Below, piece by piece: positions 6,303-29,072 of a stretch of 64,000 nucleotides of DNA (its first letter is position 1; every line of letters begins with the position of its first letter). The notes under the pieces are model-generated. The model had not been told where the DNA came from. It made no database searches and worked only from the letters and a program-made list of their open reading frames with translations. The DNA lies in the NCBI GenBank assembly GCA_023512255.1, contig JAILZY010000008.1:3508-67507 (forward strand). The letters run 5' to 3'. The translations under genes and the position numbers were made by a program. The stretch is from a bacterium. GTDB lineage: Bacteria > SZUA-182 > DTGQ01.

Positions 6303-6452
6303 TCGCTTCGCCATACATTCTGGGGCGGCCTTGCGCTGGTTCCGATAAGAAGCCCGTAGATTAACACTTCGCCATACATTCCGAGGGCGGCCTGCCGACA
6401 AGATATTTAGCGTGAAAAATCTGGACGCTTCGGCCTACATTCTGGGGCGGCC
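6303..6452. repeat. three degenerate 27-28 nt direct repeats (CGCTTCGCCATACATTCTGGGGCGGCC) separated by unique ~32-35 nt spacers; CRISPR-like geometry
   Basis: Seen directly. Copies begin at 6304, 6366 and 6426. Copies 2 and 3 carry 2-3 substitutions or an indel relative to copy 1. No cas genes in the window. Confidence 0.5.
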
Positions 6453-18427: not shown

Positions 18428-19213
18428 CTATCTCTGGGGCTTTGTTGTCTGCTTTCGCAGCATGAGCAGCTCATCGTCCAACCCGTGGCGGAGAAGATCG
18501 AGTCTGGATGACGCAGCCACGAGGCTTTCGGCGTGGACCGGCTTGATCCGGAACGGGAAGAGGCTCGGGCTGTCGATCAGATCTTTCAGCGGAGCCGAAC
18601 AGCTGGCCCGGGCGTGGAGGGACGCTTCGGCCAGCCAGGCGATCAGTCGGGAATCCTCAACAGCCAGCGTTGTCCCGGCAGAGTAAATGCCCTTTGCGCC
18701 GCTCTCCTGAAGCACGCCCCAGTCGAGGTACGAACGCAGCACGCGGCGGGCTGCTCGGGAAACGGTCTCCCGCTCGCCGTATTGCTCGCGAACCCTGCGC
18801 TGGACATGAGCCGCGGCAGCGGAGCCCTGAAGCCTCAGAAGACGGCCGGTCTGAGTGGCTACACACGACCAGAACGGGTAGACGGCCATGACCATCCCCC
18901 AGTGGATGGCTAGGCGCAAGTTATGAGGACTGAGGACTGAGTACTGAGTAGAAAGAAAGGCAAGACCGTCGTTTCGCAACGGAATGAGATCCTCTGGTGT
19001 AGTTACCCAAATCTTGCGCATGATAGAGATAATTTTATTACGATTACATCCCTTCGCCTGGCCGCCTATGGAAACCTTGTCCTTTAGTAGCTCTTGCAAG
19101 GCATCATTGATCGCAGCCTTGTCATTCCCTGCCAAGACCAGGTTGGCTGTCTGCTCAAGCCATTCCAGACGCACCCGCTGACTGAATCCGATATGGTTTC
19201 TCCTGTATGTCAT
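18428..19213 (-). CDS. hypothetical protein; candidate BrxA-like terminal gene of the BREX-like cluster
   Basis: Last gene in the same orientation, downstream of pglZ, as expected for brxA in BREX type 3. I cannot verify the DUF1819 fold by eye. Contains an in-frame partial heptad repeat (LSTQYSVLSPHNL). Confidence 0.3.
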   Translation of the reverse strand: MTYRRNHIGFSQRVRLEWLEQTANLVLAGNDKAAINDALQELLKDKVSIGGQAKGCNRNKIISIMRKIWVTTPEDLIPLRNDGLAFLSTQYSVLSPHNLRLAIHWGMVMAVYPFWSCVATQTGRLLRLQGSAAAAHVQRRVREQYGERETVSRAARRVLRSYLDWGVLQESGAKGIYSAGTTLAVEDSRLIAWLAEASLHARASCSAPLKDLIDSPSLFPFRIKPVHAESLVAASSRLDLLRHGLDDELLMLRKQTTKPQR

Positions 19214-19228
19214 TCAGAATTCCTCTTA

Positions 19229-19337
19229 CGGGTTACGAGTTATGGGTTACGAGTTACGAGTCATTAAACTCACAACTCACAACTCACAACTCTCAACTCG
19301 TAACTCATCATTACCCAGTCCTCATCACTCATCACTT
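19229..19337. repeat. palindromic array of heptanucleotide units (GTGAGTT / ACGAGTT / GGGTTAC, then GTGATGA GTGATGA GGACTG) in the pglZ-brxA intergenic spacer
   Basis: Seen directly. About 14 heptad units; the two halves are approximate reverse complements. Confidence 0.7.
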
Positions 19338-21428
19338 CCCCACGCCTCGCATCTCGATATGTACCAGAGGGACGATGAGTTCCTCGACTGAAACGCCGCC
19401 ATGGCTCACGATGCGCTGCTTTTCCTGGACAAACGTCTGCCGAGCGGGGGCCAGCAGGGCGAGGTAGTCCTCCGGGAGACCAACGGTTCCCCATTCCATC
19501 GCGGCGGGAAAGCGTTCCTTCACCTTGGCGCGTAGGGCCGCGTCGGGATAGATGCGGACCCGTTCGCCGCGCAGGTCTGCCACAGCCCCTTCGGATGGAC
19601 GACCGCAGCCTTCCGCCTCGATGTTGCCATGATCAGAGGTCAAATAAACAAGGAAGCCCCGATCCAAGAGCAGATCGAGGAGTGTGTTCAGATACGGCTG
19701 CTTGGCCCACTGGCGCACCTGGTTGTGCATCCCGGCGGTGCCCATTTCCATCCCATGCATGATCCTGTCGACCTTGTCCACGACCAGCCCGACGACCCTT
19801 GCCTTGGTATGAGAAAGCGCTTCGGAAACGCTTTCCAGGCCGCCGTCGCCCAGACCCTTGAGGTAGACGACCTCGTTTGGTGCGAGGCCCTGATCTGCCC
19901 AGAACTGCGCCCAAAGTGCTGGTTCCTTGTCCGTGGTCTGGATGCTGTTCGGGAAAAAGATGGGAGCCTTGCCGGCAAAAGTTGCCTGGCGTGAGACTGA
20001 GGTAAGCGAAGGAATCCAGGCAAAGACCGCCTGCTCCCGGAATCGCAGTCCGGGCTGCTTTGCGGCAAGTGCTTCGCGGATCACCAGCCATTGGTCCAGG
20101 GCAAGGCCGTCGATCACCAACAAAGCGAGCTTTGTTGGTGATCGCAGTGATGAGTGATGAGGACCGGGTAGTGAGTTGGCCAAAAAGAGCGGGATATGAT
20201 GAACCATGGCCGGCGGATTTGGAGGCAACTGGATAAGTCCTGCATATCGCCTCTGTATCCAAGATAGAAATCGCTGATCGACCCTTCGTGTAAGTGCATC
20301 GATACGATCATTCTGTCTTTCACTCAGTCCCCAGTCCTCATTACTCATTACTTTCAATTCCGCCCATCCGCGGGCAAAGTGGAGCCAGTCCGTGTGCTTC
20401 GCGTCCTTGGCCGGGATGGATGCCTCTAGGCTGTCGATGAGCTTGGCCAGACGACGGGACCTGTCCTCTGTGGGAGCCGCTCTAACGCCGATGCCTACCC
20501 AGGTTTTGGACAGGGTTTCCGCATACTCGTGTGGGACTGGATGCAGCACACCCTCGACGAACAGGTTGTCGATGTAGACCCGGATGTCATGGTGGTCGAA
20601 GGGAAGTTCGACAGGTCCCTTGATGGATAGACCGTAGGGCTTCTCTTCCTCACGAACGACTGCCTGTGCCGTGCCCGGCACGGCAGACAGGCCTGCCTGT
20701 TCCGAGGCTTCGGCAGGCCTGCCGGACGCCCCTTTGGCTGCCTCACGGTCAAGAAAGATCGGCCAGCGCTCTTGGAGGAACGCGAAGAAGGCTTCCCTGT
20801 CCGCCACCAGTGTCTCAAGTGGCCATTCGTCGAAGATGTTAGTCTGGCGCAGAAGCTGGATGAACCGCTCGTCGAGGATAGCAGGGATGCGTTGTCCGCG
20901 GTAGTGACGGCGCAGGAGTACCCGCAGGAGGTCCGATGGCTGTTTGATCAGCTCGGGAGCGATTTCAAAGACGTGCCGGAGGACGAACTCCTTGGTGGCG
21001 TTGTCGCTAAGCTGGCCAGGTGCATGTCGGATCGAAGCCTGATACAAGGCATCGAGATCTCCTCTGTCCAGGGCGCTCACAACCGGGCAGCTTAGGTTCG
21101 GAAAGATTTCGCCGAGGTTGAAGGAGAGTTTGCGACCGGCCTGGAGTAGATCATAGGGTAACCCGCTGAGGTCGCTTGCTTGGGAGCGCAATACCACAAC
21201 GAGGTCCGTGTGCTCCCCGCGGTCCCAGCGGGAGCGAAACTTCGATTCATAGGCGTAGCGGAACGCGATACGGTCTTCGAACGGGATCAGCTCAAAGCCA
21301 CGCTCGCGGATGCCTTCGAGAATGCCTTCTTCGAGGAGCAGTCCGTCCGGATCGGCCACTAGGGTGAGTCGAGCGACCTTCGGAGTGAATTCCTTCAGGA
21401 TTTGATCGCGCCAGCTACTCATGGCCAC
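19332..21428 (-). CDS. pglZ: PglZ-domain protein (alkaline-phosphatase superfamily; BREX/Pgl core component)
   Basis: PglZ signature LALLVIDGLALDQW...SLTSVSR...TSDHGN, about 700 aa. Confidence 0.8.
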   Translation of the reverse strand: MAMSSWRDQILKEFTPKVARLTLVADPDGLLLEEGILEGIRERGFELIPFEDRIAFRYAYESKFRSRWDRGEHTDLVVVLRSQASDLSGLPYDLLQAGRKLSFNLGEIFPNLSCPVVSALDRGDLDALYQASIRHAPGQLSDNATKEFVLRHVFEIAPELIKQPSDLLRVLLRRHYRGQRIPAILDERFIQLLRQTNIFDEWPLETLVADREAFFAFLQERWPIFLDREAAKGASGRPAEASEQAGLSAVPGTAQAVVREEEKPYGLSIKGPVELPFDHHDIRVYIDNLFVEGVLHPVPHEYAETLSKTWVGIGVRAAPTEDRSRRLAKLIDSLEASIPAKDAKHTDWLHFARGWAELKVMSNEDWGLSERQNDRIDALTRRVDQRFLSWIQRRYAGLIQLPPNPPAMVHHIPLFLANSLPGPHHSSLRSPTKLALLVIDGLALDQWLVIREALAAKQPGLRFREQAVFAWIPSLTSVSRQATFAGKAPIFFPNSIQTTDKEPALWAQFWADQGLAPNEVVYLKGLGDGGLESVSEALSHTKARVVGLVVDKVDRIMHGMEMGTAGMHNQVRQWAKQPYLNTLLDLLLDRGFLVYLTSDHGNIEAEGCGRPSEGAVADLRGERVRIYPDAALRAKVKERFPAAMEWGTVGLPEDYLALLAPARQTFVQEKQRIVSHGGVSVEELIVPLVHIEMRGVGK

Positions 21429-24369
21429 CGCCCTCCACCCGAATCACAACCAGCGGCACCATGTCGGGATAGGTGTGAGCCTTCTGATCGAGCTGCTCAT
21501 GGAAGCTCCGCTCCTCTTGGGTCAGGAGGTTCAGGCGATAGTTGCGGACCTGGGGCAGGCCAATTCGCTCGATGGTTTTGCGGCGTGCGGCAAAGGCGTA
21601 GTCTGCCTTCTCACGCTCGCGTGCGATGCGGCCCCGATGCTCTTGCAGGAGCGCTTCGTAGATAGGTTTCCCGTGTTCCTCTGCGGCGCTTTGCAGCTTT
21701 GCTAAAGAGGCTTGGGAGACCTTGGCGTCAAGGACGGACCGGACCTTTATGTTTGCTGCGAGGAGCTGATCCCACACGTGTCTGGCCGTCGGCATATAGA
21801 CCATGCCGTTGTCGGCCAAAAAGAGAGGCATGATCCGCCTGCGGCGGGTCTCCGGTCCTGGGCCCAAGGTCACGGGGCCGTCCCACCGACTCGCGACCCG
21901 CGACCCGTTACTCACAATCGAGATTTGCCACAAGGACCAGATGCCCTGGACCTCCCCGGAGAGACCGGGGATTGATACGATAGGAACCGGCTGGCCCGGC
22001 GCAAAGCGGGGAAGTCGCATGGCCAGTTCGCGAATCCTAGGCTCTTCAAGGGTAAGATGCCGGGCGGTCGGAAGCCTCTCGGCTTCCTTGCCGGTGAAGA
22101 CTACATTCTCGTAGGTCTCACCGTCGGGCCAGGTGAGGTTCCAGCTCTGGCGTCTTTTCTCGGCCTGGCCGCCGTGCGCCTTCAGGTAGCTCACGGTCAT
22201 ACGCTCGATCCAATGGGGCAAGGGGTGAGTCAGCAGCCGCTGGGCTTCGCCAGGCTCCAGATCCTCGGTCGCGCCAAGTACCGATGCGGTCGTGCGCGCC
22301 TCGCGAGCCTGCTCCTGCAAGCGGGCAATCACGCTCTCCACGGATTCCTCCACCTTTTCGGGGTTGAGGATCGCCTCGACATACATCTCGTCGAACATGT
22401 GGCTCGCCTGGGCCGAGTCAAGGACGTCGCCGGTCTTGTCAATGCCGAACTCCTCGAAGATGACGGCGAGCTTCTGCTCCAGTACTTCAAGGACCCGATG
22501 CTCAACCGATCCTTCGAGGACCAAGTTAACCGCACGCACCGTATGAGCTTGGCCGATACGATCCACCCGACCAATCCGCTGTTCGAGTCGCATCGGGTTC
22601 CAGGGGATGTCGTAGTTGATCACCACGTGGCAGAACTGGAGGTTCAAACCCTCCCCGCCGGCGTCGGTGGAGATGAGAATCCGGACATCCTTGGCGAATG
22701 CCTCCTGGGCCCGCTTACGCTCTTCCATGTCCATAGAGCCATTCAGGCAGACGACTGAAAACCCGCGCTCTGTTAGGAACCAACGCAACATCTCTTGGGT
22801 GGGAACGAACTCGGTGAACACCAGTACCTTAAGCTCAGGGTCGCTCTCCTCGGCCTGGAGGCGGTAGAGCCAGTCTAGCAGTGCCTCGGCCTTGGCGTCT
22901 GGTCCGATCTGCTCGCAGCGAGCCGCGGCCTCCAAGAGCATCTTTACCTCGGCGCGCTCGTTCTTGAGCGCCTTGAGGCGGGTGCGAAGCAACACCTCGA
23001 TCTGCTCCTGGCCGTCCAAGTCAGCCCATTCCTCTTCGGAGTTGAGGGGGAACAGGGTCAGTTGTTCCTGAGGTGCGGCGAGCGCCTCGAGCCGCCTTTC
23101 AAGCGTAATGCGGATAGCTCTTGTGCTGGAGACCACAAGGCGCTGCATCAGGATCATCAGAAAGCCGATATAGCTGCGTTTCTCCCGCATGGCCTGGTTG
23201 TAGCCTTCGCGTACGTATTCTGTGACCGCCTCGTAGAGGAGCTGCTGATCGCGGTGCCGCTCTTTCCATGAGACCGGAGCAAGCTGTGTGCGCCGCGGCT
23301 TGAACAGCGGGTTTCCCTCTACGTCAATGGCGCGGCGCTTTTCGGTGCGGATGACATGCGGTTGGACTCGCTCGCGGGTGACGCTGCTCGTGTCCGGGAA
23401 TTCCTGGGTGTCGATAAGGGAAACGAGCCGATGAAAGGCGTCGGTCTTGCCCTGGTGCGGGGTCGCCGAAAGCAGCAGGAGATATGGCGCGGACTCGGCC
23501 AGCCCCTGGCCCAGTTTGAAGCGGGCCACCTGGTCGGTGCTGCCGCCCAGACGGTGCGCTTCGTCCACGATGACCAGGTCCCAGCCGGCGGAGATCAGGT
23601 CCTCGAACCGTTCGCGGGCCGCCGCGCCGCCGCTTCCCGCCGCAGGTTTGACGGAATCCATGGGAACCACAATCTGATCTAATATCCGAAAAGGATTCTG
23701 TGCGTCTCGGCGGAGTACTGAGGACTGAGTGCTGAGGACTAAGCGGTTTTCTTCATACTCAGTCCTTAGTCCTCGTGCCTCAGTCCTGTGGATTGCCGAG
23801 ATGCGCTTCAAGGTGCGGTAGTCTTCCGTAAGAACTTGATGGAACCGTTCATTGAAGTGCATTGCCATCTCGGCAATCCACTGCGTGACCAGCCCCTTTG
23901 GGGCGATGACCAGCGTCCGCTTGACCAGTCCGCGAAGCTTAAGTTCCCGCATAATGAGCCCAGCCTCGATGGTCTTGCCCAGGCCGACCTCGTCCGCCAG
24001 GAGATAGCGCACCCGGTCGCTGCTAATGGCGCGGGATAAAGCATGGATCTGGTGAGGAAGCGGAATGACGGAGGACTCAATGGGTGCGAGCAGGACGTCC
24101 TGTGTCAGTGCATCTGCTACCCGCGCGGCCGCAGCAATGTAGGCGATATGGTCCGCCGAACCGGTACCTGCACTATCCAGTGGTTTAAGTCTGGAAGCCG
24201 CCGGGATGCGGACCACCGAGTCGCTCCCGGGCAGCCAGACATGGCAGGTCGTCTCGCCCCAGAGCGTCTGGACTTCGATGACCTGACAAAGCTGCCCGTG
24301 GTCCGGGGAATACAACCACGAATGAACACGAATGGACTCAAATAAGTTCATAGGACAAGTCTCTCCCAT
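21415..24369 (-). CDS. SNF2-family superfamily-2 helicase (BrxHII-like)
   Basis: Motif I LADEVGLGKTIEAGL; DEAH box IVDEAHRL; C-terminal helicase domain; 984 aa. Confidence 0.8.
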   Translation of the reverse strand: MGETCPMNLFESIRVHSWLYSPDHGQLCQVIEVQTLWGETTCHVWLPGSDSVVRIPAASRLKPLDSAGTGSADHIAYIAAAARVADALTQDVLLAPIESSVIPLPHQIHALSRAISSDRVRYLLADEVGLGKTIEAGLIMRELKLRGLVKRTLVIAPKGLVTQWIAEMAMHFNERFHQVLTEDYRTLKRISAIHRTEARGLRTEYEENRLVLSTQSSVLRRDAQNPFRILDQIVVPMDSVKPAAGSGGAAARERFEDLISAGWDLVIVDEAHRLGGSTDQVARFKLGQGLAESAPYLLLLSATPHQGKTDAFHRLVSLIDTQEFPDTSSVTRERVQPHVIRTEKRRAIDVEGNPLFKPRRTQLAPVSWKERHRDQQLLYEAVTEYVREGYNQAMREKRSYIGFLMILMQRLVVSSTRAIRITLERRLEALAAPQEQLTLFPLNSEEEWADLDGQEQIEVLLRTRLKALKNERAEVKMLLEAAARCEQIGPDAKAEALLDWLYRLQAEESDPELKVLVFTEFVPTQEMLRWFLTERGFSVVCLNGSMDMEERKRAQEAFAKDVRILISTDAGGEGLNLQFCHVVINYDIPWNPMRLEQRIGRVDRIGQAHTVRAVNLVLEGSVEHRVLEVLEQKLAVIFEEFGIDKTGDVLDSAQASHMFDEMYVEAILNPEKVEESVESVIARLQEQAREARTTASVLGATEDLEPGEAQRLLTHPLPHWIERMTVSYLKAHGGQAEKRRQSWNLTWPDGETYENVVFTGKEAERLPTARHLTLEEPRIRELAMRLPRFAPGQPVPIVSIPGLSGEVQGIWSLWQISIVSNGSRVASRWDGPVTLGPGPETRRRRIMPLFLADNGMVYMPTARHVWDQLLAANIKVRSVLDAKVSQASLAKLQSAAEEHGKPIYEALLQEHRGRIAREREKADYAFAARRKTIERIGLPQVRNYRLNLLTQEERSFHEQLDQKAHTYPDMVPLVVIRVEGGGHE
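23714..23790. repeat. ~77 bp imperfect-palindrome repeat element built from GAGGACT-type heptads, in-frame inside the helicase gene
   Basis: The 3' 30 nt are identical (one mismatch) to the copy at 28617-28696. Translated in-frame as RTEARGLRTEYEENRLVLSTQSSVL. Confidence 0.7.
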
Positions 24370-24731
24370 TCGAGTTTTGGCTTTTTGAAATTGAGGATAA
24401 GGCCGACTTTGAGCTGGGTAATCTTCAGGTAGTTGAGCATCTGGCCACGTTCAACATCCGTAATACGGTCAATCGTCTTGGCGTCGACCACGATCTTATC
24501 AAAGGCAATCAAATCGGGAATGTAATCGCCCACCTTGACACCTTTGTAAATTACATCGAAGCGCGGCTGCTGCTTGTAAGGGATTCCTCTCAGGCCAAAT
24601 TCAACAACGAGTGCATTTTCATACGGCTTTTCCAGCAACCCATGCCCAAGCGTATTGAACACCTCCATGGCGCAGCCAACGATCTGGAATACCTCATCTT
24701 TGAACAGTAATTTGTGTTCCTTCGTGTCCAT
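24348..24731 (-). CDS. GxxExxY-family small protein (PD-(D/E)xK nuclease-like fold)
   Basis: 127 aa. VGCAMEVFNTLG matches the GxxExxY motif, with downstream D/E-x-K-type residues. Overlaps the helicase start by 22 nt. Confidence 0.65.
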   Translation of the reverse strand: MDTKEHKLLFKDEVFQIVGCAMEVFNTLGHGLLEKPYENALVVEFGLRGIPYKQQPRFDVIYKGVKVGDYIPDLIAFDKIVVDAKTIDRITDVERGQMLNYLKITQLKVGLILNFKKPKLEWERLVL

Positions 24732-24740
24732 TCGTGGTTC

Positions 24741-25667
24741 TCACTCCTCCCCCGCTCGAGTAACCGCCTGGTCGTACCACATGAGGAGCTTGGGGTCTTT
24801 CTGGAGGACGTTCTCAGGAATTTTGCGGGCCACAGCGATGATGGTGGCATAGTCGCGCTCCTGCCATGCCTTCTTGAATCCGGCCCGGACCGCCTCAAGG
24901 CGGAAGACCTTCAGTTTCCGCTGGCTGGAAGCCAGCGCCACACTGGAAGCCAGCGCCACATATTCTTGAAATTCCTTGAGCAGGGACCGCTCGCGCAGCT
25001 TCTCCAGGTCGATGGCCTTGTTCGGGTCAGGCACATACCAGCGGTCCTTGGCTTCGCGAAGCAGTCTCGGGTCCTGAGTCTCGAGTCCCGAGTCTTCTGA
25101 TCCGTCACCCGCGACCCGCGACTCGCGACTGATCAACTCCCGCCATGTAGCACTCTGCTTCATCCACGAGACGATTTGTTTTGGAATAGGCCCCTTGCCG
25201 TCATAGCGCAAGAAGTTCTGCTCCAGCAGCTCGGAAAGCTCCAGCAGCCTCTCGTGCTTATGCCAGCCGCTGATCTCCTTGAGGAATTGGGGGTGCAGTT
25301 CCTGGAAGGTCTGTGGCTTCCGTGTGAGCTGCTGTTTGAGCCACTCGATGGCTGAGGCCTCATCCGTGACAAAGAGCGGAAGCTGCACAAAGAGCGGAAG
25401 CTGCACAAAGAGCGGAAGCTGCAGCAACTTTCGGACAGCCATCCGCTTTTTGTCATACTCAGCCACCTGCTCGGGCAGGAAGTACATCCCGTCCCGTTCT
25501 GGGAAACGCTGGGCCAGCCCAGCGTAAAACTCCCCAGCGGATATCGGAACCATCACCCCACGCTGCACATGAAAGGCCACCATGCGGTCAAAGAGTAGGT
25601 AATTCTGGCGCTCGGCGATGATTTCCAAGGTGGAGCCTGCATCTTGCAGGCTATCTTCTTGCTGCAC
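24741..25667 (-). CDS. hypothetical protein, possibly the frameshifted C-terminal portion of the PglX-like methyltransferase
   Basis: Follows methyltransferase piece 2 after 10 nt in another frame. The three pieces sum to about 1255 aa (PglX-like size). Contains two in-frame 18-bp tandem repeat arrays. Confidence 0.35.
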   Translation of the reverse strand: MQQEDSLQDAGSTLEIIAERQNYLLFDRMVAFHVQRGVMVPISAGEFYAGLAQRFPERDGMYFLPEQVAEYDKKRMAVRKLLQLPLFVQLPLFVQLPLFVTDEASAIEWLKQQLTRKPQTFQELHPQFLKEISGWHKHERLLELSELLEQNFLRYDGKGPIPKQIVSWMKQSATWRELISRESRVAGDGSEDSGLETQDPRLLREAKDRWYVPDPNKAIDLEKLRERSLLKEFQEYVALASSVALASSQRKLKVFRLEAVRAGFKKAWQERDYATIIAVARKIPENVLQKDPKLLMWYDQAVTRAGEE

Positions 25668-25677
25668 CGGCTGACTT

Positions 25678-26910
25678 TTATTTTTGTTTAGCCTGCTGGA
25701 AGCAGGCTCTACTTTGCTTAGCCTGCTGGAAGCAGAACTCAGCCTGCTGGAAGCAGGCTCTCACAAATACCGGCAGTTGCTTCAGGTGAGTGCGGACAAA
25801 GTCCCAAACGCCTTGCTCCGTCCCCGCTTCGAGCTTGAAGCGTTCCTCTAGGCCACCGTTTGGCTTGTAGCAGGAGATGATGAGGTCCTGTTTGACCGCG
25901 GATGCTGAAGTTACCTGCTTGAAAGAACCTTGCTGCTTGTCCAGCGTGCGCACATCAGCAATGACAAAGCACGCGGCCTGCAGGGCCTCCTGGATCGCGT
26001 TCCAGACCGCGTTCTTGGAGTTGTGAAATTCCACCGTCATCCAGTGGCCCGGCTTGAGCACCCGGTAGTATTCTTTGAAACATTCGGTCATGAGCTTCTG
26101 GTATTCTGGCAGCCCTTTGCCCTGGGCGGTGTTTTCGATGGCCTCAGGCTTGTTGTTGGTAAAAACCTTAAGCCACGCCTCCCAGAGGAAATTCAGCTCA
26201 GAATACATCAGGTTGCCACCAAAGGGTGGGTCGGTGAAGATGTAGTCGATGGATTCGCCTGGTATTGGGAATACTGAAGAATCACAACAACCAATGGATG
26301 CCACCTTGATCTCGCCAAACCGTGGAGCTTCATGTTTTATGAGTCTCTGCAATTTACCGGTAAGAATGTAACCGGAAGACACTTCTACCTGTTGCGAACC
26401 GACGTATAACGTGCCACTAAGATACCGGTTTACTTGCGAAAAATGAGTAGGGACATACCGCGATATTTTCGCGAATCCCAGCGCCGCATACTGTATGAAA
26501 AACAAGCTCAATTTGTGCCGTGCCTTAAATGCCTTATCATACATCCCCCCCAGCACCCACAGATTCCGTCTGGTATAGAAATGGTGCACATGGGTGATGC
26601 CGTGGGAAACTTTAGGTTGCTCCGTGTTATAGCCCTCCGGCATACGATCCGTCGGAAACCAATATGGTATTTCCATCTGCTCAATTTTTTCGATAAGTGC
26701 TAGATCGAAGGCGTCGGGCGTCTTTTCGAATCGCTGCTTTCCCACGCTATAGTTGATGAGCACCGGCACTTGTTTGGCTTGCCTGATGGTCTGATTAATA
26801 GCCTTATCAAATTTGGTAACCCAAGCCCGTTCCATTAGGCGTTTGGTGAGCAGGGTGCCGCAGTGGGGGCAGGGAAATTTGTCATGGATTTTGCCCGCTT
26901 CCTTATTCAC
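25678..26910 (-). CDS. DNA methyltransferase fragment (amino-methyltransferase catalytic motif DPPF), piece 2; in-frame continuation of 26920..28533 across a TAG
   Basis: Catalytic motif IV IFTDPPFGGN. Begins with a CPHCG half zinc ribbon. Starts at GTG three codons after the TAG of the upstream piece, in the same frame. Confidence 0.7.
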   Translation of the reverse strand: MNKEAGKIHDKFPCPHCGTLLTKRLMERAWVTKFDKAINQTIRQAKQVPVLINYSVGKQRFEKTPDAFDLALIEKIEQMEIPYWFPTDRMPEGYNTEQPKVSHGITHVHHFYTRRNLWVLGGMYDKAFKARHKLSLFFIQYAALGFAKISRYVPTHFSQVNRYLSGTLYVGSQQVEVSSGYILTGKLQRLIKHEAPRFGEIKVASIGCCDSSVFPIPGESIDYIFTDPPFGGNLMYSELNFLWEAWLKVFTNNKPEAIENTAQGKGLPEYQKLMTECFKEYYRVLKPGHWMTVEFHNSKNAVWNAIQEALQAACFVIADVRTLDKQQGSFKQVTSASAVKQDLIISCYKPNGGLEERFKLEAGTEQGVWDFVRTHLKQLPVFVRACFQQAEFCFQQAKQSRACFQQAKQK

Positions 26911-26919
26911 GGCAGCCTC

Positions 26920-28533
26920 CTAGAAGACTACCTCTTGGGTGCAGTTTGGGCAGACAAAGACATCGGACCAGACGGTATAGTTGATTTTTCCCAGTGGAGC
27001 CGGCTTCCAGCCGGCTGAAACCAATTCTTTTGCTACATACCGCCATTCATAATCCAGCGGCCGCCTTACCAGGCCAGCTTTGACCGGGTTATGGTTTACA
27101 TAAGCCAGTGTGGCCATCAGTTCTTTGCTATCGCGGATGATTCGATCATAGCTTTCCGTCTGCCATACTGTAGTCCCAGTTTTTTGCTCCAATTTATTCA
27201 CTTCATTGGCTGAATAGCTTTTAACACTGTGAAGAATCTCAGATAGATCCCAGGGTGCGTCTTTTTGTTTTTCGAGAGGTTTGGCCACGATATGAACATG
27301 ATCTGGCATAACCACCGCAGTGAACACCTTCCAGCGCTTTTGATCCCAGAATAAAATCGCATCCAGAACAATTTTCCTGGCTGGTTCACTGAGAACGCGC
27401 AGGTCGTGTGTTCTGAATGTAACAAAATAAGTGGCCCCGGGAACCTGGATGTGGGGTAGGTTATCTTTTCTGAAGGTTGATTCGTTTGTCTGAAATGGAT
27501 TGCAGGGCTCGAAGTTTATTGCTGATATAAGCCTGCTGGAAGCAGGCTCTACATGCAGGGTCTCATACATCCAGCCGCATTCGGCTTCCACTTCCTTCAG
27601 GATGCGCCTGGCTTCACGCTCAAAGGCCACGACATCCACCGGGGTGTTGTAGTTATAGGCGATGAAGGTGGCAGCAGGCGACAGGTCATTCAAGACAGCC
27701 CGCCGCGCGCCAAGTTTCGAAAATGGTTTCCAGATGGTTTTGCCGCTCTCTTCGGTTTCCTTCTGATAGATCACCCCGTCCTTATCCACCCGGTAGCCCA
27801 GCGCCTCGACCGCTGCTTTATCCCCGCACATCTGCGCTGCTACGCCGGTCATCCCTGTCCCGCAGAAGCCGTCGAAAACGATATCCCCAGGCTCGGTGTA
27901 ATGCAGGATGTAGCGCATTACGGCCTTGTGCGGCACCTTAGTGTGGTAGGAGTGGGCATTGTAGATCGGATCGTTCTTGCCCTCGCTCACATCCGCGGCA
28001 AAGGGCTCGCGGTGATAGGGTTTATCCACAAAGGCACACGAAGCCCCACCAAGAGATTTCTCTTGTTCGTACATCTTCGTGTCCTTCGTGGATTCCCAAT
28101 ACCTTACCATGTCGGCGATGAAGGGATTGGGGCAGGCGGTGTAGTAGGGTGGGTCGGATAGTGCCAGGATGTCCTCGTCGCTGCCGTGCGGGAAGCCGAC
28201 CTCGTCCTTGTAAAGGCTGAGGAGGTCTCGGGGCACGGGTCGTGAGTCGCGGGTCGATGATGCAGCGTGGGCGATGCGTCCTGCCAGGTAGCGGATTTGC
28301 TCGTCATTGCCCAGCAGCCAATGCTCGAGGGATTTCAGCCGCTGGTAAGTATCTTCGAGACTCGTAAAGGGGACGGAAAGCTTTTCTCGCATCTCCTGCA
28401 AGCCTGCTCGCAAAATGCCGAGAAAAGCTTTCTGCCGCTCTTCGTCGTTCGGGAACGTTAGCCCCAAGCAGGTCACGGGTTTATGGTGTTTGATTTCTGG
28501 TTTCTCGTTGTCGAATAGGATGTCCATGTTCAT
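26920..28533 (-). CDS. DNA methyltransferase N-terminal module fused in-frame to an IS200/IS605-type Y1 HUH transposase domain, piece 1
   Basis: Methyltransferase motifs SDPPYY (aa 127-132) and FDGFCGTGMTG (aa 220-230). Y1 transposase domain at aa ~362-495 with HUH motif PDHVHIV and catalytic-Tyr motif VWQTESYDRIIRD. C-terminal CPNC half zinc ribbon, then TAG. Confidence 0.75.
   Translation of the reverse strand: MNMDILFDNEKPEIKHHKPVTCLGLTFPNDEERQKAFLGILRAGLQEMREKLSVPFTSLEDTYQRLKSLEHWLLGNDEQIRYLAGRIAHAASSTRDSRPVPRDLLSLYKDEVGFPHGSDEDILALSDPPYYTACPNPFIADMVRYWESTKDTKMYEQEKSLGGASCAFVDKPYHREPFAADVSEGKNDPIYNAHSYHTKVPHKAVMRYILHYTEPGDIVFDGFCGTGMTGVAAQMCGDKAAVEALGYRVDKDGVIYQKETEESGKTIWKPFSKLGARRAVLNDLSPAATFIAYNYNTPVDVVAFEREARRILKEVEAECGWMYETLHVEPASSRLISAINFEPCNPFQTNESTFRKDNLPHIQVPGATYFVTFRTHDLRVLSEPARKIVLDAILFWDQKRWKVFTAVVMPDHVHIVAKPLEKQKDAPWDLSEILHSVKSYSANEVNKLEQKTGTTVWQTESYDRIIRDSKELMATLAYVNHNPVKAGLVRRPLDYEWRYVAKELVSAGWKPAPLGKINYTVWSDVFVCPNCTQEVVF
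27049..27450 (-). other. embedded IS200/IS605-family Y1 (HUH) transposase-like domain within the methyltransferase ORF
   Basis: GATYFVTFRT...PDHVHIV...TVWQTESYDRIIRD...HNPVKAGLV carries all hallmark motifs of TnpA(IS200)/RAYT. Confidence 0.7.
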
Positions 28534-29072
28534 TCCGTCCCTGGCGTAACAATTAAAAAATCGTGAACTGGATATCGTCTGTATTCTGGGTGATCCGGCG
28601 TCGCATAGACCAAATAGAGTGATGAGGACTGAGTGATTAGTGCTGAGTCTTCGGACGTCTCTGACTCAGTCCTCAGTCCTCGTGCCTCAGTCCTGATTTT
28701 GCCGCTCCAAGCCGCGACCACCGTCTTGTTCCGCGAGAGCCTCTGCAGAAGCCGCAACGGGTCCTGCTTGAGAGAGACATCGAAGAGGACCTCGATGTTG
28801 TCCAGCAAAACCACATCGGCTGCGGATGCGCCCACGATATCTGCAAGGAGGCGGGGCAACTGCAAGGCCCGCTGGCGCTCGGTGAGGTCGAGCATTCGCC
28901 GGGAAAGCTCGAGGTTGACGTTGACCAGAGGAGCCGCCGTGCGCTCATGGACATCCTGGAGAGCGGCGGTCTTGCCCGCACCAGCCGGGGCCACCAACAT
29001 GACAAGCCGGTGGTACAGCTCGGCAGCCTGGCCAATTCTCTTTATGACTCTATCGGCGAGTGGCTCCGCCAT
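28530..29072 (-). CDS. P-loop NTPase, BrxF-like (BREX type 3)
   Basis: Walker A LVAPAGAGKTAAL. Small size and first position in the cluster fit BrxF. The likely start is MAEPLADR at 29072; the track ORF extends to 29132. The C-terminus carries an in-frame repeat-element insertion. Confidence 0.5.
   Translation of the reverse strand: MAEPLADRVIKRIGQAAELYHRLVMLVAPAGAGKTAALQDVHERTAAPLVNVNLELSRRMLDLTERQRALQLPRLLADIVGASAADVVLLDNIEVLFDVSLKQDPLRLLQRLSRNKTVVAAWSGKIRTEARGLRTESETSEDSALITQSSSLYLVYATPDHPEYRRYPVHDFLIVTPGTE
28617..28696. repeat. second copy of the same palindromic heptad element, in-frame near the C-terminus of the BrxF-like gene
   Basis: Shares GATGAGGACTGAGTG...ACTCAGTCCTCAGTCCTCGTGCCTCAGTCCTG with the copy at 23714-23790. 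Encodes IRTEARGLRTESETSEDSALITQSSSL. Confidence 0.7.

What the first reader, a model, noticed from the sequence alone, without database searches (positions are those of the whole stretch)
28617..28696. Second copy of the palindromic heptad element at the BrxF-like C-terminus
Same element as at 23714-23790 (GATGAGGACTGAGTGATTAGTGCTGAGTC...GACTCAGTCCTCAGTCCTCGTGCCTCAGTCCTG). It is in-frame and lies at the boundary between the brxF-like gene and the methyltransferase gene. It may influence translational coupling, or it may be the insertion that altered the BrxF C-terminus.
Basis: seen in the sequence. Interest (0 to 1): 0.6.

Follow-up and report, generated by a model that had tools for sequence, protein, structure and literature searches.

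The report
Translated heptad-repeat hairpin inside BrxF
An 80-base hairpin built from 7-base repeats sits in-frame inside the phage-defence gene brxF (and again inside the neighbouring helicase gene), adding a floppy surface loop; it is most likely a tolerated piece of repeat DNA shared by many BREX-3 cassettes, not a signal at the gene boundary.

Summary
Window 28617-28696 is an imperfect hairpin of GGACTGA-type heptads, and its 32-nt arm recurs at 23757-23788 with one mismatch (0 expected by chance). Both copies lie in-frame in minus-strand genes of a type 3 BREX locus: BrxF aa 126-152 and the SNF2 helicase BrxHII aa 194-219. Only one of six frames is open.

It is not at the gene boundary. 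It ends 28 codons before the brxF stop. brxF abuts pglXI only because this degenerate locus has lost brxC.

Relative to canonical 158-aa BrxF it is a 23-codon block replacement. Eighteen of 85 brxF genes examined share it, including cultured Desulfoglaeba and Desulfosoma, and it is interleaved with empty alleles. AlphaFold models it as a disordered loop.

The arms diverge equally at all codon positions (0.16, against 0.32 at 4-fold sites) and the loop faster (0.55). There is no covariation, and some orthologues have decayed hairpins. The same heptad hairpins occur, mostly between genes, in many phyla and in viral contigs, and in-frame in an ABC ATPase and an EF-G-like gene.

Best reading: a tolerated DNA-level repeat, analogous to Rickettsia palindromic elements. 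One natural one-heptad deletion frameshifts brxF, so a contingency-switch role is not excluded.

The parts
28617..28696 (-). Heptad hairpin, copy B, in-frame in brxF (codons 126-152). In mRNA sense: 5' arm 28694-28665 (AGGACTGAGGCACGAGGACTGAGGACTGAG), loop 28664-28650 (TCAGAGACGTCCGAA), 3' arm 28649-28617 (GACTCAGCACTAATCACTCAGTCCTCATCACTC).
23714..23790 (-). Heptad hairpin, copy A, in-frame in the type-3 SNF2 helicase BrxHII (codons 194-219), between helicase motifs I/Ia and II, in a linker whose length varies across the family.
28530..29072 (-). brxF (180 aa, identical to P0001, 'BREX-3 system P-loop-containing protein BrxF'). The stop TGA at 28530-28532 overlaps the pglXI start.
28481..28574 (-). 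Junction left by loss of brxC. About 90 nt of AT-rich sequence without homology to L134, spanning the last ~14 brxF codons and the first ~17 pglXI codons.
21415..24369 (-). brxHII (984 aa; PADLOC PDLC02500, labelled BrxHI|BrxHII; SNF2-rel_dom plus Helicase_C).
20322..20353 (-). Single heptad arm in-frame in PglZ (aa 359-369, KVMSNEDWGLS), complementary to 18919-18942 and partner of 20146-20176.
20146..20176 (-). Single heptad arm in-frame in PglZ (aa 418-428, NSLPGPHHSSL). It adds ~6 aa in a variable loop. It is 93% complementary to 19308-19336.
19226..19336 (.). Intergenic heptad hairpin of other unit types (TTACGAG / AACTCAC / CTCATCA) between pglZ and brxA.
18918..18955 (-). TGAGGAC x3.6 heptad run, in-frame in BrxA (aa 87-99, LSTQYSVLSPHNL).
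25063..25130 (-). Heptad hairpin of the GAGTCCC/GCGACCC type, in-frame in the C-terminal pglXI fragment (aa 180-202).
21887..21907 (-). CGACCCG x3 heptad run, in-frame in BrxHII (aa 821-828).

Best explanation
The element belongs to a widely dispersed family of hairpin-forming tandem heptads, (GAGGACT)n - spacer - (AGTCCTC)n. It has come to lie inside brxF as a discrete block that replaced about 21 nt with about 90 nt (net +23 codons).

It persists because the one stop-free frame of the element is in register with brxF, and because the site is a turn between two short beta-strands near the C-terminus. There the extra 23-26 residues form a disordered, hydrophilic surface loop. I infer that it has no dedicated role in BREX expression or in brxF-pglXI coupling.

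It travels with the horizontally mobile BREX-3 cassette. Recombination shuffles it among brxF alleles as a presence/absence polymorphism. A sister copy occupies a variable linker of BrxHII in the same cassette lineage.

Its main biological consequence is mutational. The heptads can slip, giving a frameshift that meets pre-positioned TGA stops, and the hairpin centre changes fast.

Shown: anatomy, frame, insertion status, sharing among alleles, lack of codon periodicity, lack of covariation, predicted disorder, and family distribution. Inferred: neutrality, single origin, and the way the element was copied in.
For: 1. Insert versus empty alleles share identical boundaries. The empty site reads GGC TCC ATC GAC GGA GAG | CAC ATG GTC. 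The filled site reads GGC GAA ATC [arm-loop-arm] TAT TTG GTC, in 18 of 85 brxF genes.
2. Filled and empty alleles are interleaved on a tree of the N-terminal 372 nt. Association with the insert vanishes within 6 nt on either side, so it is a discrete, recombining block.
3. Among 13 filled genes, the arms diverge 0.17/0.14/0.17 (5' arm) and 0.16/0.21/0.11 (3' arm) at codon positions 1/2/3. The flanking brxF sequence shows 0.076 at positions 1+2 and 0.32 at 4-fold sites. The peptide is therefore not under protein-level constraint, while the host gene is under purifying selection.
4. AlphaFold models the core confidently, while residues 129-155 have pLDDT below 50 and no secondary structure.
5. 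There is no evidence that pairing is selected. RNAalifold gives -8.1 kcal/mol, a covariation term of +0.27, and 2 of 22 pairs compensatory. Arm-swapped chimeras fold as well as native pairs (-32.0 vs -31.5 kcal/mol; 3685 of 5000 permutations at least as good). Several orthologues have decayed hairpins, with z from -0.2 to -1.6.
6. The family is dispersed. There are also 60 viral contigs. L051 (Binatia), an intergenic copy, has a 5' arm one base different from the window's.
7. The same frame (...RGLRTE...QSSVL...) is read through hairpins in unrelated genes: an ABC ATPase linker (L045, Gallionella) and an EF-G-like protein (L093, Thermoguttaceae).
8. There is no Rfam match and no terminator-like feature at the element.
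9. Intact BREX-3 loci of cultured Desulfoglaeba alkanexedens and Desulfosoma caldarium carry the filled brxF allele.
Against: 1. Arms diverge at half the 4-fold-site rate (0.16 vs 0.32) and the loop faster than 4-fold sites (0.55). Plain neutrality does not predict this. It needs a younger coalescence of the insert, homogenisation of the heptads, or a hypermutable hairpin centre, none of which I could show.
2. Period-7 runs are about 3-fold enriched inside BREX-3 cassettes relative to their flanks (22 of 29 vs 40% expected; 5 vs 0 in this window). Every BREX gene in the window carries one in-frame. That hints at something cassette-specific, although shared ancestry inflates the statistic.
3. 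There is no target-site duplication and no cognate transposase, so how the element was copied in is unknown.
4. L167 (a different 5'-arm heptad type) and L184 (an unrelated insert) at the same brxF site argue for more than one event there.
5. I could not count copies in the host genome, since only 64 kb was available.
Confidence: 0.6

Rival explanations
1. Contingency (phase-variation) switch. The tandem heptads are slippage-prone tracts. Gain or loss of one 7-nt unit shifts the frame, and the TGA present in both alternative frames of GGACTGA stops translation at once. This would switch BrxF (and BrxHII, PglZ, BrxA, PglXI) on and off to balance defence against its cost.
For: The unit length is not a multiple of 3. 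TGAs sit out of frame at 28689, 28675 and 28668. L157 is L127 (6 mismatches in ~566 nt) with exactly one heptad (CAGCACG) deleted from the 3' arm, which frameshifts brxF. The two come from sister samples, Ga0209200 and Ga0209201. Heptad runs are enriched in BREX-3 cassettes and present in every BREX gene of the window. From established knowledge, repeat-mediated phase variation is common in restriction-modification and Pgl/BREX systems.
Against: Only 2-2.4 perfect units occur per arm and the units are imperfect. Arm lengths (30 and 33 nt) are constant across 13 alleles that differ by 0.32 at 4-fold sites, with no +/-7 or +/-21 variants other than L157. Hairpin geometry is not needed for slippage. 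The same elements are mostly intergenic elsewhere.
Confidence: 0.12
2. A cis-acting RNA (or DNA) structure that regulates the operon. The hairpin near the 3' end of brxF would stabilise the upstream transcript, pause ribosomes, or set the brxF:downstream expression ratio, including coupling to the next gene.
For: The window copies are much more stable than shuffles (z -2.95 to -5.75). Arms are more conserved than 4-fold sites and show no codon periodicity. Intergenic family members often sit just after stop codons.
Against: There is no covariation, and arm-swapped chimeras fold equally well. Hairpins have decayed in L128, L130, L135 and L137. Most brxF genes, and whole intact cassettes, lack the element. 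It lies inside translated sequence. It has no U-tract or terminator signal and no Rfam family. The brxF-pglXI overlap is a deletion artefact of this locus.
Confidence: 0.08
3. An adaptive protein feature. The insert provides a variable surface loop on the BrxF cap (and on BrxHII), and its tip diversifies under selection, for example to escape phage inhibitors or to change partner specificity.
For: The loop codons are the fastest-evolving part (0.55 per site, against 0.32 at 4-fold sites) and fall into about 5 sequence types. The site is surface-exposed. The carriers are defence proteins.
Against: Loop divergence is similar at all codon positions (0.52/0.49/0.65). The segment is predicted to be disordered. 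The same peptide appears in unrelated housekeeping-type proteins and the same DNA is mostly non-coding, so the sequence is dictated by DNA, not by protein function.
Confidence: 0.08
4. Local, recurrent origin rather than one insertion of a pre-existing copy. The heptad arrays arose in place, by slippage and template switching on a native seed, and did so repeatedly at the same permissive turns.
For: Empty alleles already contain seed-like motifs at the sites: GACGGAGAG in brxF, and a single GCGACCCG where BrxC alleles have tandem GCGACCC units. There is no target-site duplication, and the change is a block replacement. Different heptad types occupy the same sites: L167 and L184 in brxF, L131 (GTCCAAA/TTGGAC) in brxHII. 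In PglZ the arms replace variable-loop sequence with little length change.
Against: Seventeen brxF copies share the same boundaries and flanking substitutions (GAA ... TAT TTG), which independent events would not reproduce. The 30-nt arm is nearly identical to intergenic copies in unrelated phyla (L051, L112, L075) and to the brxHII copy, which points to copying from a template.
Confidence: 0.12

Closest known systems
Rickettsia palindromic elements (RPEs; Ogata et al. 2000, 2002, as summarised in PMC10969869)
   Same: A short palindromic repeat family found both between genes and inside protein-coding genes. Copies are inserted in-frame, translated with the host protein, and sit at positions compatible with the fold. 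They are regarded as selfish DNA.
   Different: RPEs are ~100-150 bp, are not built from 7-nt units, and are confined to Rickettsia. This element is ~80 nt with arms of tandem GGACTGA-type heptads, occurs across many phyla and in viral contigs, and here sits in a horizontally mobile defence cassette.
TAACTGA heptanucleotide repeats of Beggiatoaceae, Cyanobacteria and Bacteroidetes (PMC4679880), and the tandemly repeated heptanucleotides reported for the cyanobacterium Calothrix PCC 7601 (as cited in PMC4692102)
   Same: A 7-nt unit sharing the ACTGA core, with related variant units interleaved. The distribution across phyla is patchy and has no known vector. The forward orientation gives stops in all three frames. 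Occasional reverse-orientation copies lie inside ORFs in surface loops.
   Different: Those are overwhelmingly direct repeats located a few nucleotides upstream of start codons (one inverted pair among 170 sets). Here two inverted arrays form a hairpin, and whole hairpins are read through in-frame.
REP / REPIN elements mobilised by RAYT transposases (PMC3116915)
   Same: Two conserved inverted arms around a less conserved spacer, forming a hairpin. The repeats are dispersed and multi-copy within genomes.
   Different: REPINs are extragenic and have a cognate RAYT flanked by the same repeat. The only RAYT-like gene in this window is flanked by a different palindrome (GCCTGCTGGAAGCAGGC), and the arms here are tandem heptads.
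Simple-sequence-repeat contingency loci in restriction-modification and other defence genes (phasevarions; my own knowledge, plus PMC4692102 on repeat-mediated phase variation)
   Same: Tandem repeats whose unit is not a multiple of three, inside defence genes. One natural one-unit deletion causes a frameshift (L157).
   Different: Contingency tracts are long, perfect and highly length-polymorphic between strains. These arms hold 2-4 imperfect units and keep the same length across divergent alleles.

Membership tests
BrxF (BREX type 3 P-loop protein), host gene of the element | Significant match to BrxF profiles, and a P-loop | tested here: met
   PADLOC PDLC02496, E 5e-71. GAGKT is present. 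100% identical to a protein that NCBI names BREX-3 BrxF.
BREX type 3 system (locus context) | Full gene set: brxF, brxC, pglXI, brxHII, pglZ, brxA | tested here: not met
   BrxF, BrxHII, PglZ and BrxA are present. brxC is absent, about 5.7 kb missing relative to L134. pglXI is split into three ORFs by a RAYT/REP insertion, an in-frame TAG and a REP cluster. This is a degenerate member.
Rickettsia palindromic elements (RPE) | Palindromic repeat able to form a hairpin | tested here: met
   MFE -31 to -45 kcal/mol, z -2.95 to -5.75.
Rickettsia palindromic elements (RPE) | Inserted in-frame in protein-coding genes, with the host ORF kept intact | tested here: met
   Host genes are under purifying selection (0.076 at codon positions 1+2 vs 0.32 at 4-fold sites). 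Translation itself was not shown experimentally.
Rickettsia palindromic elements (RPE) | Insertion site on the protein surface, compatible with the fold | tested here: met
   AlphaFold: the insert is a loop with pLDDT below 50 between two strands, and the core is confident.
Rickettsia palindromic elements (RPE) | Size ~100-150 bp and membership of the Rickettsia RPE sequence families | tested here: not met
   The element is ~80 nt and heptad-based, and the host is an unclassified non-rickettsial MAG. I did not compare it directly with RPE consensus sequences.
TAACTGA-type heptanucleotide repeats | Tandem 7-nt units | tested here: met
   TRF period 7 at 28665-28694, 23713-23740 and 18924-18948.
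TAACTGA-type heptanucleotide repeats | Unit sequence TAACTGA | tested here: not met
   Units are GGACTGA, GTGCTGA, GTGATGA and GGCACGA. Only the ACTGA/CTGA core is shared.
TAACTGA-type heptanucleotide repeats | Direct repeats, mostly intergenic and just upstream of start codons | tested here: not met
   The arms are inverted, and both window copies are intragenic.
REPIN / REP-RAYT | Inverted doublet of a conserved repeat around a spacer | tested here: met
   Arms of 30 and 33 nt around a 15-nt spacer. Arms are conserved and the spacer is variable.
REPIN / REP-RAYT | Extragenic location | tested here: not met
   Inside brxF and brxHII. Family members elsewhere are mostly intergenic.
REPIN / REP-RAYT | Cognate RAYT gene flanked by the same repeat | tested here: not met
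   The RAYT-like gene at ~27040-27470 is flanked by GCCTGCTTCCAGCAGGC / GCCGGCTGGAAGCCGGC, not by heptads.
REPIN / REP-RAYT | Tens to hundreds of copies in the host genome | not testable with these tools
   Only 64 kb of the host is available. It holds two full hairpins of this type plus fragments, all inside the BREX island. Other genomes contribute 3-6 hit loci each.
MITE | Target-site duplication flanking the element | tested here: not met
   Filled versus empty sites show a block replacement with no duplicated flank.
Repeat-based contingency locus | Repeat unit not a multiple of 3, inside an ORF | tested here: met
   7-nt units in-frame in five BREX genes.
Repeat-based contingency locus | Unit-number polymorphism among close relatives | tested here: inconclusive
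   One case, L157 = L127 minus 7 nt. The other filled alleles have constant arm lengths. No read-level data.
Repeat-based contingency locus | Long, perfect repeat tract | tested here: not met
   At most ~2.4 perfect units (GAGGACTGAGGACTGAG), and neighbouring units differ.
Any Rfam RNA family | Match at or near the gathering score | tested here: not met
   Only two hits, E 0.27-0.68 and far below gathering, both at the 19226-19304 hairpin. Nothing at the element.

The most novel reading that the evidence does not exclude
The heptad hairpins are not passive passengers but mutational devices carried by the cassette. In-frame tandem heptads with TGA waiting in both alternative frames would act as slip-strand on/off switches for each BREX-3 gene. 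The hairpin centre would act as a localised hypermutation spot that diversifies the tip of a surface loop on defence proteins. This would explain three things: why period-7 runs concentrate inside BREX-3 cassettes, why the loop evolves faster than 4-fold sites while the arms are kept, and why a natural one-heptad frameshift allele exists.
Probability: 0.12. Interest if true: 0.8.

Novelty: new variant of a known kind. Interest (0 to 1): 0.5.

Why it matters
In-frame, translated palindromic repeats are textbook only for Rickettsia. This case shows the same phenomenon with a different, heptad-based element family. That family spans many phyla and viral contigs, and it sits in several genes of a horizontally mobile anti-phage cassette as presence/absence alleles.

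For people annotating or engineering BREX-3, it means the 176-199-aa BrxF class and the long-linker BrxHII class differ from the canonical forms by repeat DNA, not by a new domain.

For genome evolution, it offers a tractable system, with filled and empty alleles of the same genes in cultured Desulfoglaeba and Desulfosoma. It could be used to ask how such hairpins are copied, why their centres change so fast, and whether they make defence genes mutationally switchable.

Tried and rejected
1. **Translational coupling or boundary signal.** Rejected. The brxF-pglXI overlap results from loss of brxC, and relatives with the insert have a spacer and brxC downstream.

2. **Intrinsic terminator or known RNA family.** Nothing found at the element.

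3. **Conserved RNA structure.** RNAalifold and a register-independent arm-swap test gave no covariation signal.

4. **'The TGA-to-CGA change in the in-frame heptad is an adaptation to translation.'** I first inferred this, then withdrew it. The same NNCGAG second heptad occurs in intergenic family members (L051, L112, L075, L014). It may still be why these copies could be tolerated.

5. **One clean insert-bearing clade.** Rejected. Filled and empty alleles interleave and linkage disappears within 6 nt.

6. **Link to the RAYT-like transposase in pglXI.** Rejected. It is flanked by a different palindrome.

7. **Gene conversion between the two window copies.** Both share GCA-CGA where other brxF alleles have GGA/GGC/GAC-CGA, and L134's brxHII arm is identical to the window's brxF arm. 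This rests on a single nucleotide, so I leave it as a hint only.

8. **Literature searches** for the repeat sequence itself, for heptameric or STRR repeats, and for in-frame palindromes found no description of this element. The library is limited to open-access papers.

9. **A failed call.** One family search failed on a wrong frame. I read the RAYT motifs from the sequence instead.
Full report
**1. The observation**

The two align at 80% mean column identity. The right-hand 32-nt arm occurs exactly twice in the window, with 0 and 1 mismatches, against no match in any of 100 dinucleotide-preserving shuffles (D10).

Tandem Repeats Finder reports period 7 in both arms. Both copies fold far better than shuffled controls:

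| Copy | mRNA-sense RNA | Opposite strand |
|---|---|---|
| B (28617-28696) | -31.1 kcal/mol, z -2.95 | -35.4 kcal/mol, z -3.10 |
| A (23714-23790) | -34.2 kcal/mol, z -4.21 | -44.9 kcal/mol, z -5.75 |

**2. Context**

The genes are on the minus strand and form a type 3 BREX locus:

| Gene | Coordinates | Note |
|---|---|---|
| BrxF | 28530-29072 | 100% identical to a protein NCBI names BREX-3 BrxF |
| PglXI | 26920-28533, 25678-26910, 24741-25667 | three ORFs |
| PD-(D/E)XK gene | 24348-24731 | small |
| BrxHII | 21415-24369 | SNF2 helicase; PADLOC labels the model BrxHI\|BrxHII |
| PglZ | 19332-21428 | |
| BrxA | 18428-19213 | |

The island has 55-61% G+C against 43-50% in the flanks. The flanks hold ordinary chromosomal genes such as EF-G, type IV pilus genes and histidine kinases. 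The host is an unclassified MAG lineage: its EF-G is only about 60% identical to any named taxon.

Canonical BREX-3 loci read HTH-brxF-brxC-pglXI-brxHII-pglZ-brxA (PMC12839542). This window lacks brxC. Against its closest relative, L134, homology stops near 28574 and resumes near 28481, with about 5.7 kb missing and about 90 nt of unrelated AT-rich sequence at the junction.

The ATGA overlap of the brxF stop and the pglXI start is therefore secondary. pglXI is also interrupted by a RAYT-like gene bracketed by REP-like palindromes, an in-frame TAG, and a REP cluster. The locus is degenerate.

**3. Relation to reading frames**

Copy B is BrxF codons 126-152 (IRTEARGLRTESETSEDSALITQSSSL). Copy A is BrxHII codons 194-219 (HRTEARGLRTEYEENRLVLSTQSSVL). 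In each copy only one of six frames is free of stops.

The heptad GGACTGA puts TGA in the two other sense frames. The one heptad that would place TGA in frame reads CGA in both copies. I first took this as adaptation to translation. However, the same NNCGAG second heptad occurs in intergenic members of the family (L051, L112, L075, L014). It is better seen as a pre-existing variant that allowed these copies to be tolerated.

Sharing of the same frame by the two copies follows from there being only one open frame. It is not independent evidence of function.

**4. Is it an insertion?**

Yes. Close BrxF homologues fall into a 158-aa class and a 176-199-aa class. The alignment shows a 23-residue segment at one site. 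It is absent from the short class. In the long class its ends are conserved (RTEGRGLRTE, DSxLxTQSSSL) and its middle is variable.

Of 85 brxF genes recovered with DNA:
- 18 carry the heptad insert. These include cultured Desulfoglaeba alkanexedens and Desulfosoma caldarium, and MAGs of Syntrophobacteraceae and Dissulfuribacterales.
- One (L184) carries an unrelated insert at the same site.
- The rest are empty.

At DNA level, the empty site GGC TCC ATC GAC GGA GAG | CAC ATG GTC is replaced by GGC GAA ATC [30-nt arm, ~15-nt loop, 33-nt arm] TAT TTG GTC. This is a block replacement without target-site duplication. The family C-terminus follows in-frame, in the window too.

**5. Population behaviour**

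On a tree of the N-terminal 372 nt, filled and empty genes are interleaved. Association between polymorphisms and insert status is strong only in the codons abutting the insert and is about zero 6 nt away on either side. The insert therefore behaves as a discrete presence/absence allele, shuffled by recombination among cassettes that move between hosts.

An analogous in-frame heptad hairpin in BrxC (GGGTCTC/GCGACCC type, +27 nt) is present in 4 loci and absent from 25. It assorts independently of the brxF insert.

**6. What is conserved, and at what level?**

Among 13 filled genes:

| Region | Divergence per site |
|---|---|
| brxF, codon positions 1+2 | 0.076 |
| brxF, 4-fold degenerate sites | 0.32 |
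| 5' arm, codon positions 1/2/3 | 0.17 / 0.14 / 0.17 |
| 3' arm, codon positions 1/2/3 | 0.16 / 0.21 / 0.11 |
| Loop | 0.55 |

The host gene is under purifying selection. The arms show no codon periodicity, so the encoded peptide is not what is constrained.

AlphaFold agrees. The P-loop core is confident, while residues 129-155 have pLDDT below 50 and no secondary structure, looping out between two short strands. PMC12839542 describes a beta-sheet cap in BrxF, but I did not map the insert onto it.

Nor is base pairing demonstrably selected:
- RNAalifold gives a weak consensus (-8.1 kcal/mol, covariation term +0.27, 2 of 22 pairs compensatory).
- In a register-independent test, arm-swapped chimeras fold as well as native pairs (-32.0 vs -31.5 kcal/mol; 3685 of 5000 permutations at least as good).
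- Four orthologues have decayed hairpins, with z between -0.2 and -1.6.

The slow arms and the fast loop remain unexplained. A younger coalescence of the insert, homogenisation among heptads, and a mutable hairpin centre are all possible.

**7. The second copy and other heptad stretches**

The BrxHII site lies between helicase motifs I/Ia and II, in a linker whose length varies across homologues.
- The same RTEARGLRTE...SAL element is present in L134 and P0121.
- L131 has a hairpin of a different heptad type (GTCCAAA/TTGGAC) there.
- Cassettes with empty brxF have a short non-heptad linker.

In the window, every BREX gene carries at least one in-frame heptad stretch: BrxA aa 87-99, PglZ aa 359-369 and 418-428, BrxHII aa 194-219 and 821-828, the PglXI C-terminal fragment aa 180-202, and BrxF aa 126-152. 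A hairpin of other heptad types lies between pglZ and brxA. The PglZ arms sit in variable loops and are shared with the nearest homologue, P0361.

Period-7 runs number 5 in the 11-kb island and 0 in the other 53 kb. Pooled with 21 other loci, 22 of 29 runs lie inside cassettes, against 40% expected (nominal p about 1e-4). Homologous sites are not independent, and many cassettes have none.

**8. The wider family**

The hosts include Chloroflexia, Acidobacteriota, Cyanobacteria, Gallionellaceae, Desulfobacterota, Gemmatimonadota, Bacteroidia, Planctomycetota and others. Several genomes contribute 3-6 loci. There were also 60 viral contigs.

A random 17-mer would give some tens of chance hits in a collection this size. 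However, the hits are extended heptad arrays. About 40% of genome sites (57 of 138) and 30% of viral sites (21 of 71) have an inverted arm within 170 nt. Most are intergenic, often just after a stop codon.

Whole hairpins are read through in the same frame (...RGLRTE...QSSVL...) in genes confirmed by Pfam:
- a two-domain ABC ATPase, in the inter-domain linker (L045, Gallionella);
- an EF-G family protein, between the G domain and domain II (L093, Thermoguttaceae).

No Rfam family and no terminator-like feature matches the element.

**9. Interpretation**

The best-supported reading (confidence 0.6) is a DNA-level repeat of a dispersed heptad-hairpin family. It is tolerated in brxF because its single open frame is in register and because the site is a surface turn. 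It is carried along and recombined with the BREX-3 cassette, without a dedicated role in expression or coupling.

Rivals:
- **Contingency switch (0.12).** Supported by one natural allele, L157, which equals L127 minus exactly one heptad and is frameshifted, and by the enrichment in cassettes. Weakened by the few, imperfect units and by constant arm lengths.
- **Regulatory RNA or DNA structure (0.08).** Weakened by the lack of covariation, the decayed orthologues, and the many intact cassettes that lack the element.
- **Adaptive variable loop (0.08).** Weakened by the lack of codon-position signal and by the same DNA being mostly non-coding elsewhere.
- **Recurrent local origin by slippage or template switching (0.12).** Supported by seed-like motifs in empty alleles and by different heptad types at the same sites. 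Weakened by the identical boundaries of 17 copies and by near-identical arms in unrelated genomes.

**10. Comparison with what is known**

In behaviour the element is closest to Rickettsia palindromic elements: in-frame, translated, and at fold-compatible sites (PMC10969869). It fails membership on size, sequence and host.

In sequence logic it is closest to the TAACTGA heptanucleotide repeats of Beggiatoaceae, Cyanobacteria and Bacteroidetes: a shared ACTGA core, stops in all forward frames, and a patchy cross-phylum spread (PMC4679880). Those, however, are direct repeats upstream of start codons.

Its geometry resembles REPINs (PMC3116915), but it is intragenic and has no cognate RAYT.

Heptameric repeats are known to be over-represented in bacteria and are little studied (PMC4692102). 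I found no description of this element in the searchable literature. I therefore rate it a new variant of a known kind, of moderate interest.

Noticed in passing
window 26999-27547: A small RAYT-like (IS200/Y1 transposase) gene sits in the same frame inside pglXI. It has the HUH motif DHVHIV, a ...YVNHNPVKAGLV tail and a Pfam Y1_Tnp hit. It is bracketed by inverted REP-like palindromes, GCCTGCTTCCAGCAGGC (27531-27547) and GCCGGCTGGAAGCCGGC (26999-27015). Its AT-rich composition differs from the island.
   Followed up: partly
window 25635-25758: A cluster of the same REP-like palindrome (GCCTGCTGGAAGCAGGC; three tandem copies at 25691-25758) splits pglXI between ORFs 25678-26910 and 24741-25667. 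The motif has 9 hits against 0.33 expected in the window, all inside pglXI.
   Followed up: partly
window 26920-26922: An in-frame TAG separates the first and second pglXI ORFs (TTC TAG GAG GCT GCC GTG). This could be a nonsense mutation, a sequencing error or recoding. Together with the missing brxC, it suggests the BREX-3 system here is inactive.
   Followed up: no
window 28481-28574: brxC (about 5.7 kb in relative L134) is missing. The junction holds about 90 nt of AT-rich sequence with no homology to L134, and it recodes the last ~14 BrxF and first ~17 PglXI codons.
   Followed up: yes
window 24314-24739: The PD-(D/E)XK (PDDEXK_3) gene between pglXI and brxHII is bracketed by 30-nt inverted repeats with a 10-nt internal period (24314-24343 / 24710-24739, 87% complementary). 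It looks like a small inserted cassette. Relatives have other small genes (23S rRNA IVS-type four-helix proteins) at comparable positions in L001.
   Followed up: no
window 25369-25423: A perfect 18-nt tandem repeat (ACAAAGAGCGGAAGCTGC, 3.1 copies, 100% identical) lies in-frame inside the C-terminal pglXI fragment.
   Followed up: no
window 19226-19336: A long intergenic hairpin made of other heptad types (TTACGAG x5, AACTCAC x6, CTCATCA) lies between pglZ and brxA. Its distal arm (19308-19336) is 93% complementary to the PglZ arm at 20146-20174, 809 nt away.
   Followed up: partly
L127 vs L157 (brxF): Two nearly identical brxF genes from sister metagenomes differ by an exact one-heptad (CAGCACG) deletion in the 3' arm, which frameshifts L157. 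This is a natural slippage event.
   Followed up: yes
L001 13736-13798; also L005, L140, L134 (brxC): Another in-frame heptad hairpin (GGGTCTC / GCGACCC units, +27 nt) occupies one site in BrxC in 4 loci and is absent from 25. It assorts independently of the brxF insert. Empty alleles carry a single GCGACCCG unit at that site.
   Followed up: partly
P0030, P0037, P0045, P0046 (BrxF homologues): Some BrxF proteins have a second, 13-residue insert (LPVPQSEAARHAG-like) after about residue 87, absent from the window protein. I did not examine its DNA.
   Followed up: no
L174, L179 (brxF): In these loci the brxF reading frame diverges right after a short-looped version of the hairpin and continues to about 830 nt with unrelated sequence (...LINAAAVLQQL...). 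This suggests a rearrangement with a breakpoint at the element.
   Followed up: no
window 6304-6452: Three copies of a 27-nt repeat (CGCTTCGCCATACATTCTGGGGCGGCC; 78-100% identical) lie at an exact 61-nt spacing in an intergenic region. The layout resembles a tiny or degenerate CRISPR array with two ~34-nt spacers. No cas genes were looked for.
   Followed up: no
L219 (viral contig IMGVR_UViG_3300036859_000158): A GAGGACT hairpin with the NNCGAG second heptad lies in an open frame of 744 codons on a viral contig. The same contig has a second copy (L248). I did not identify the gene.
   Followed up: no
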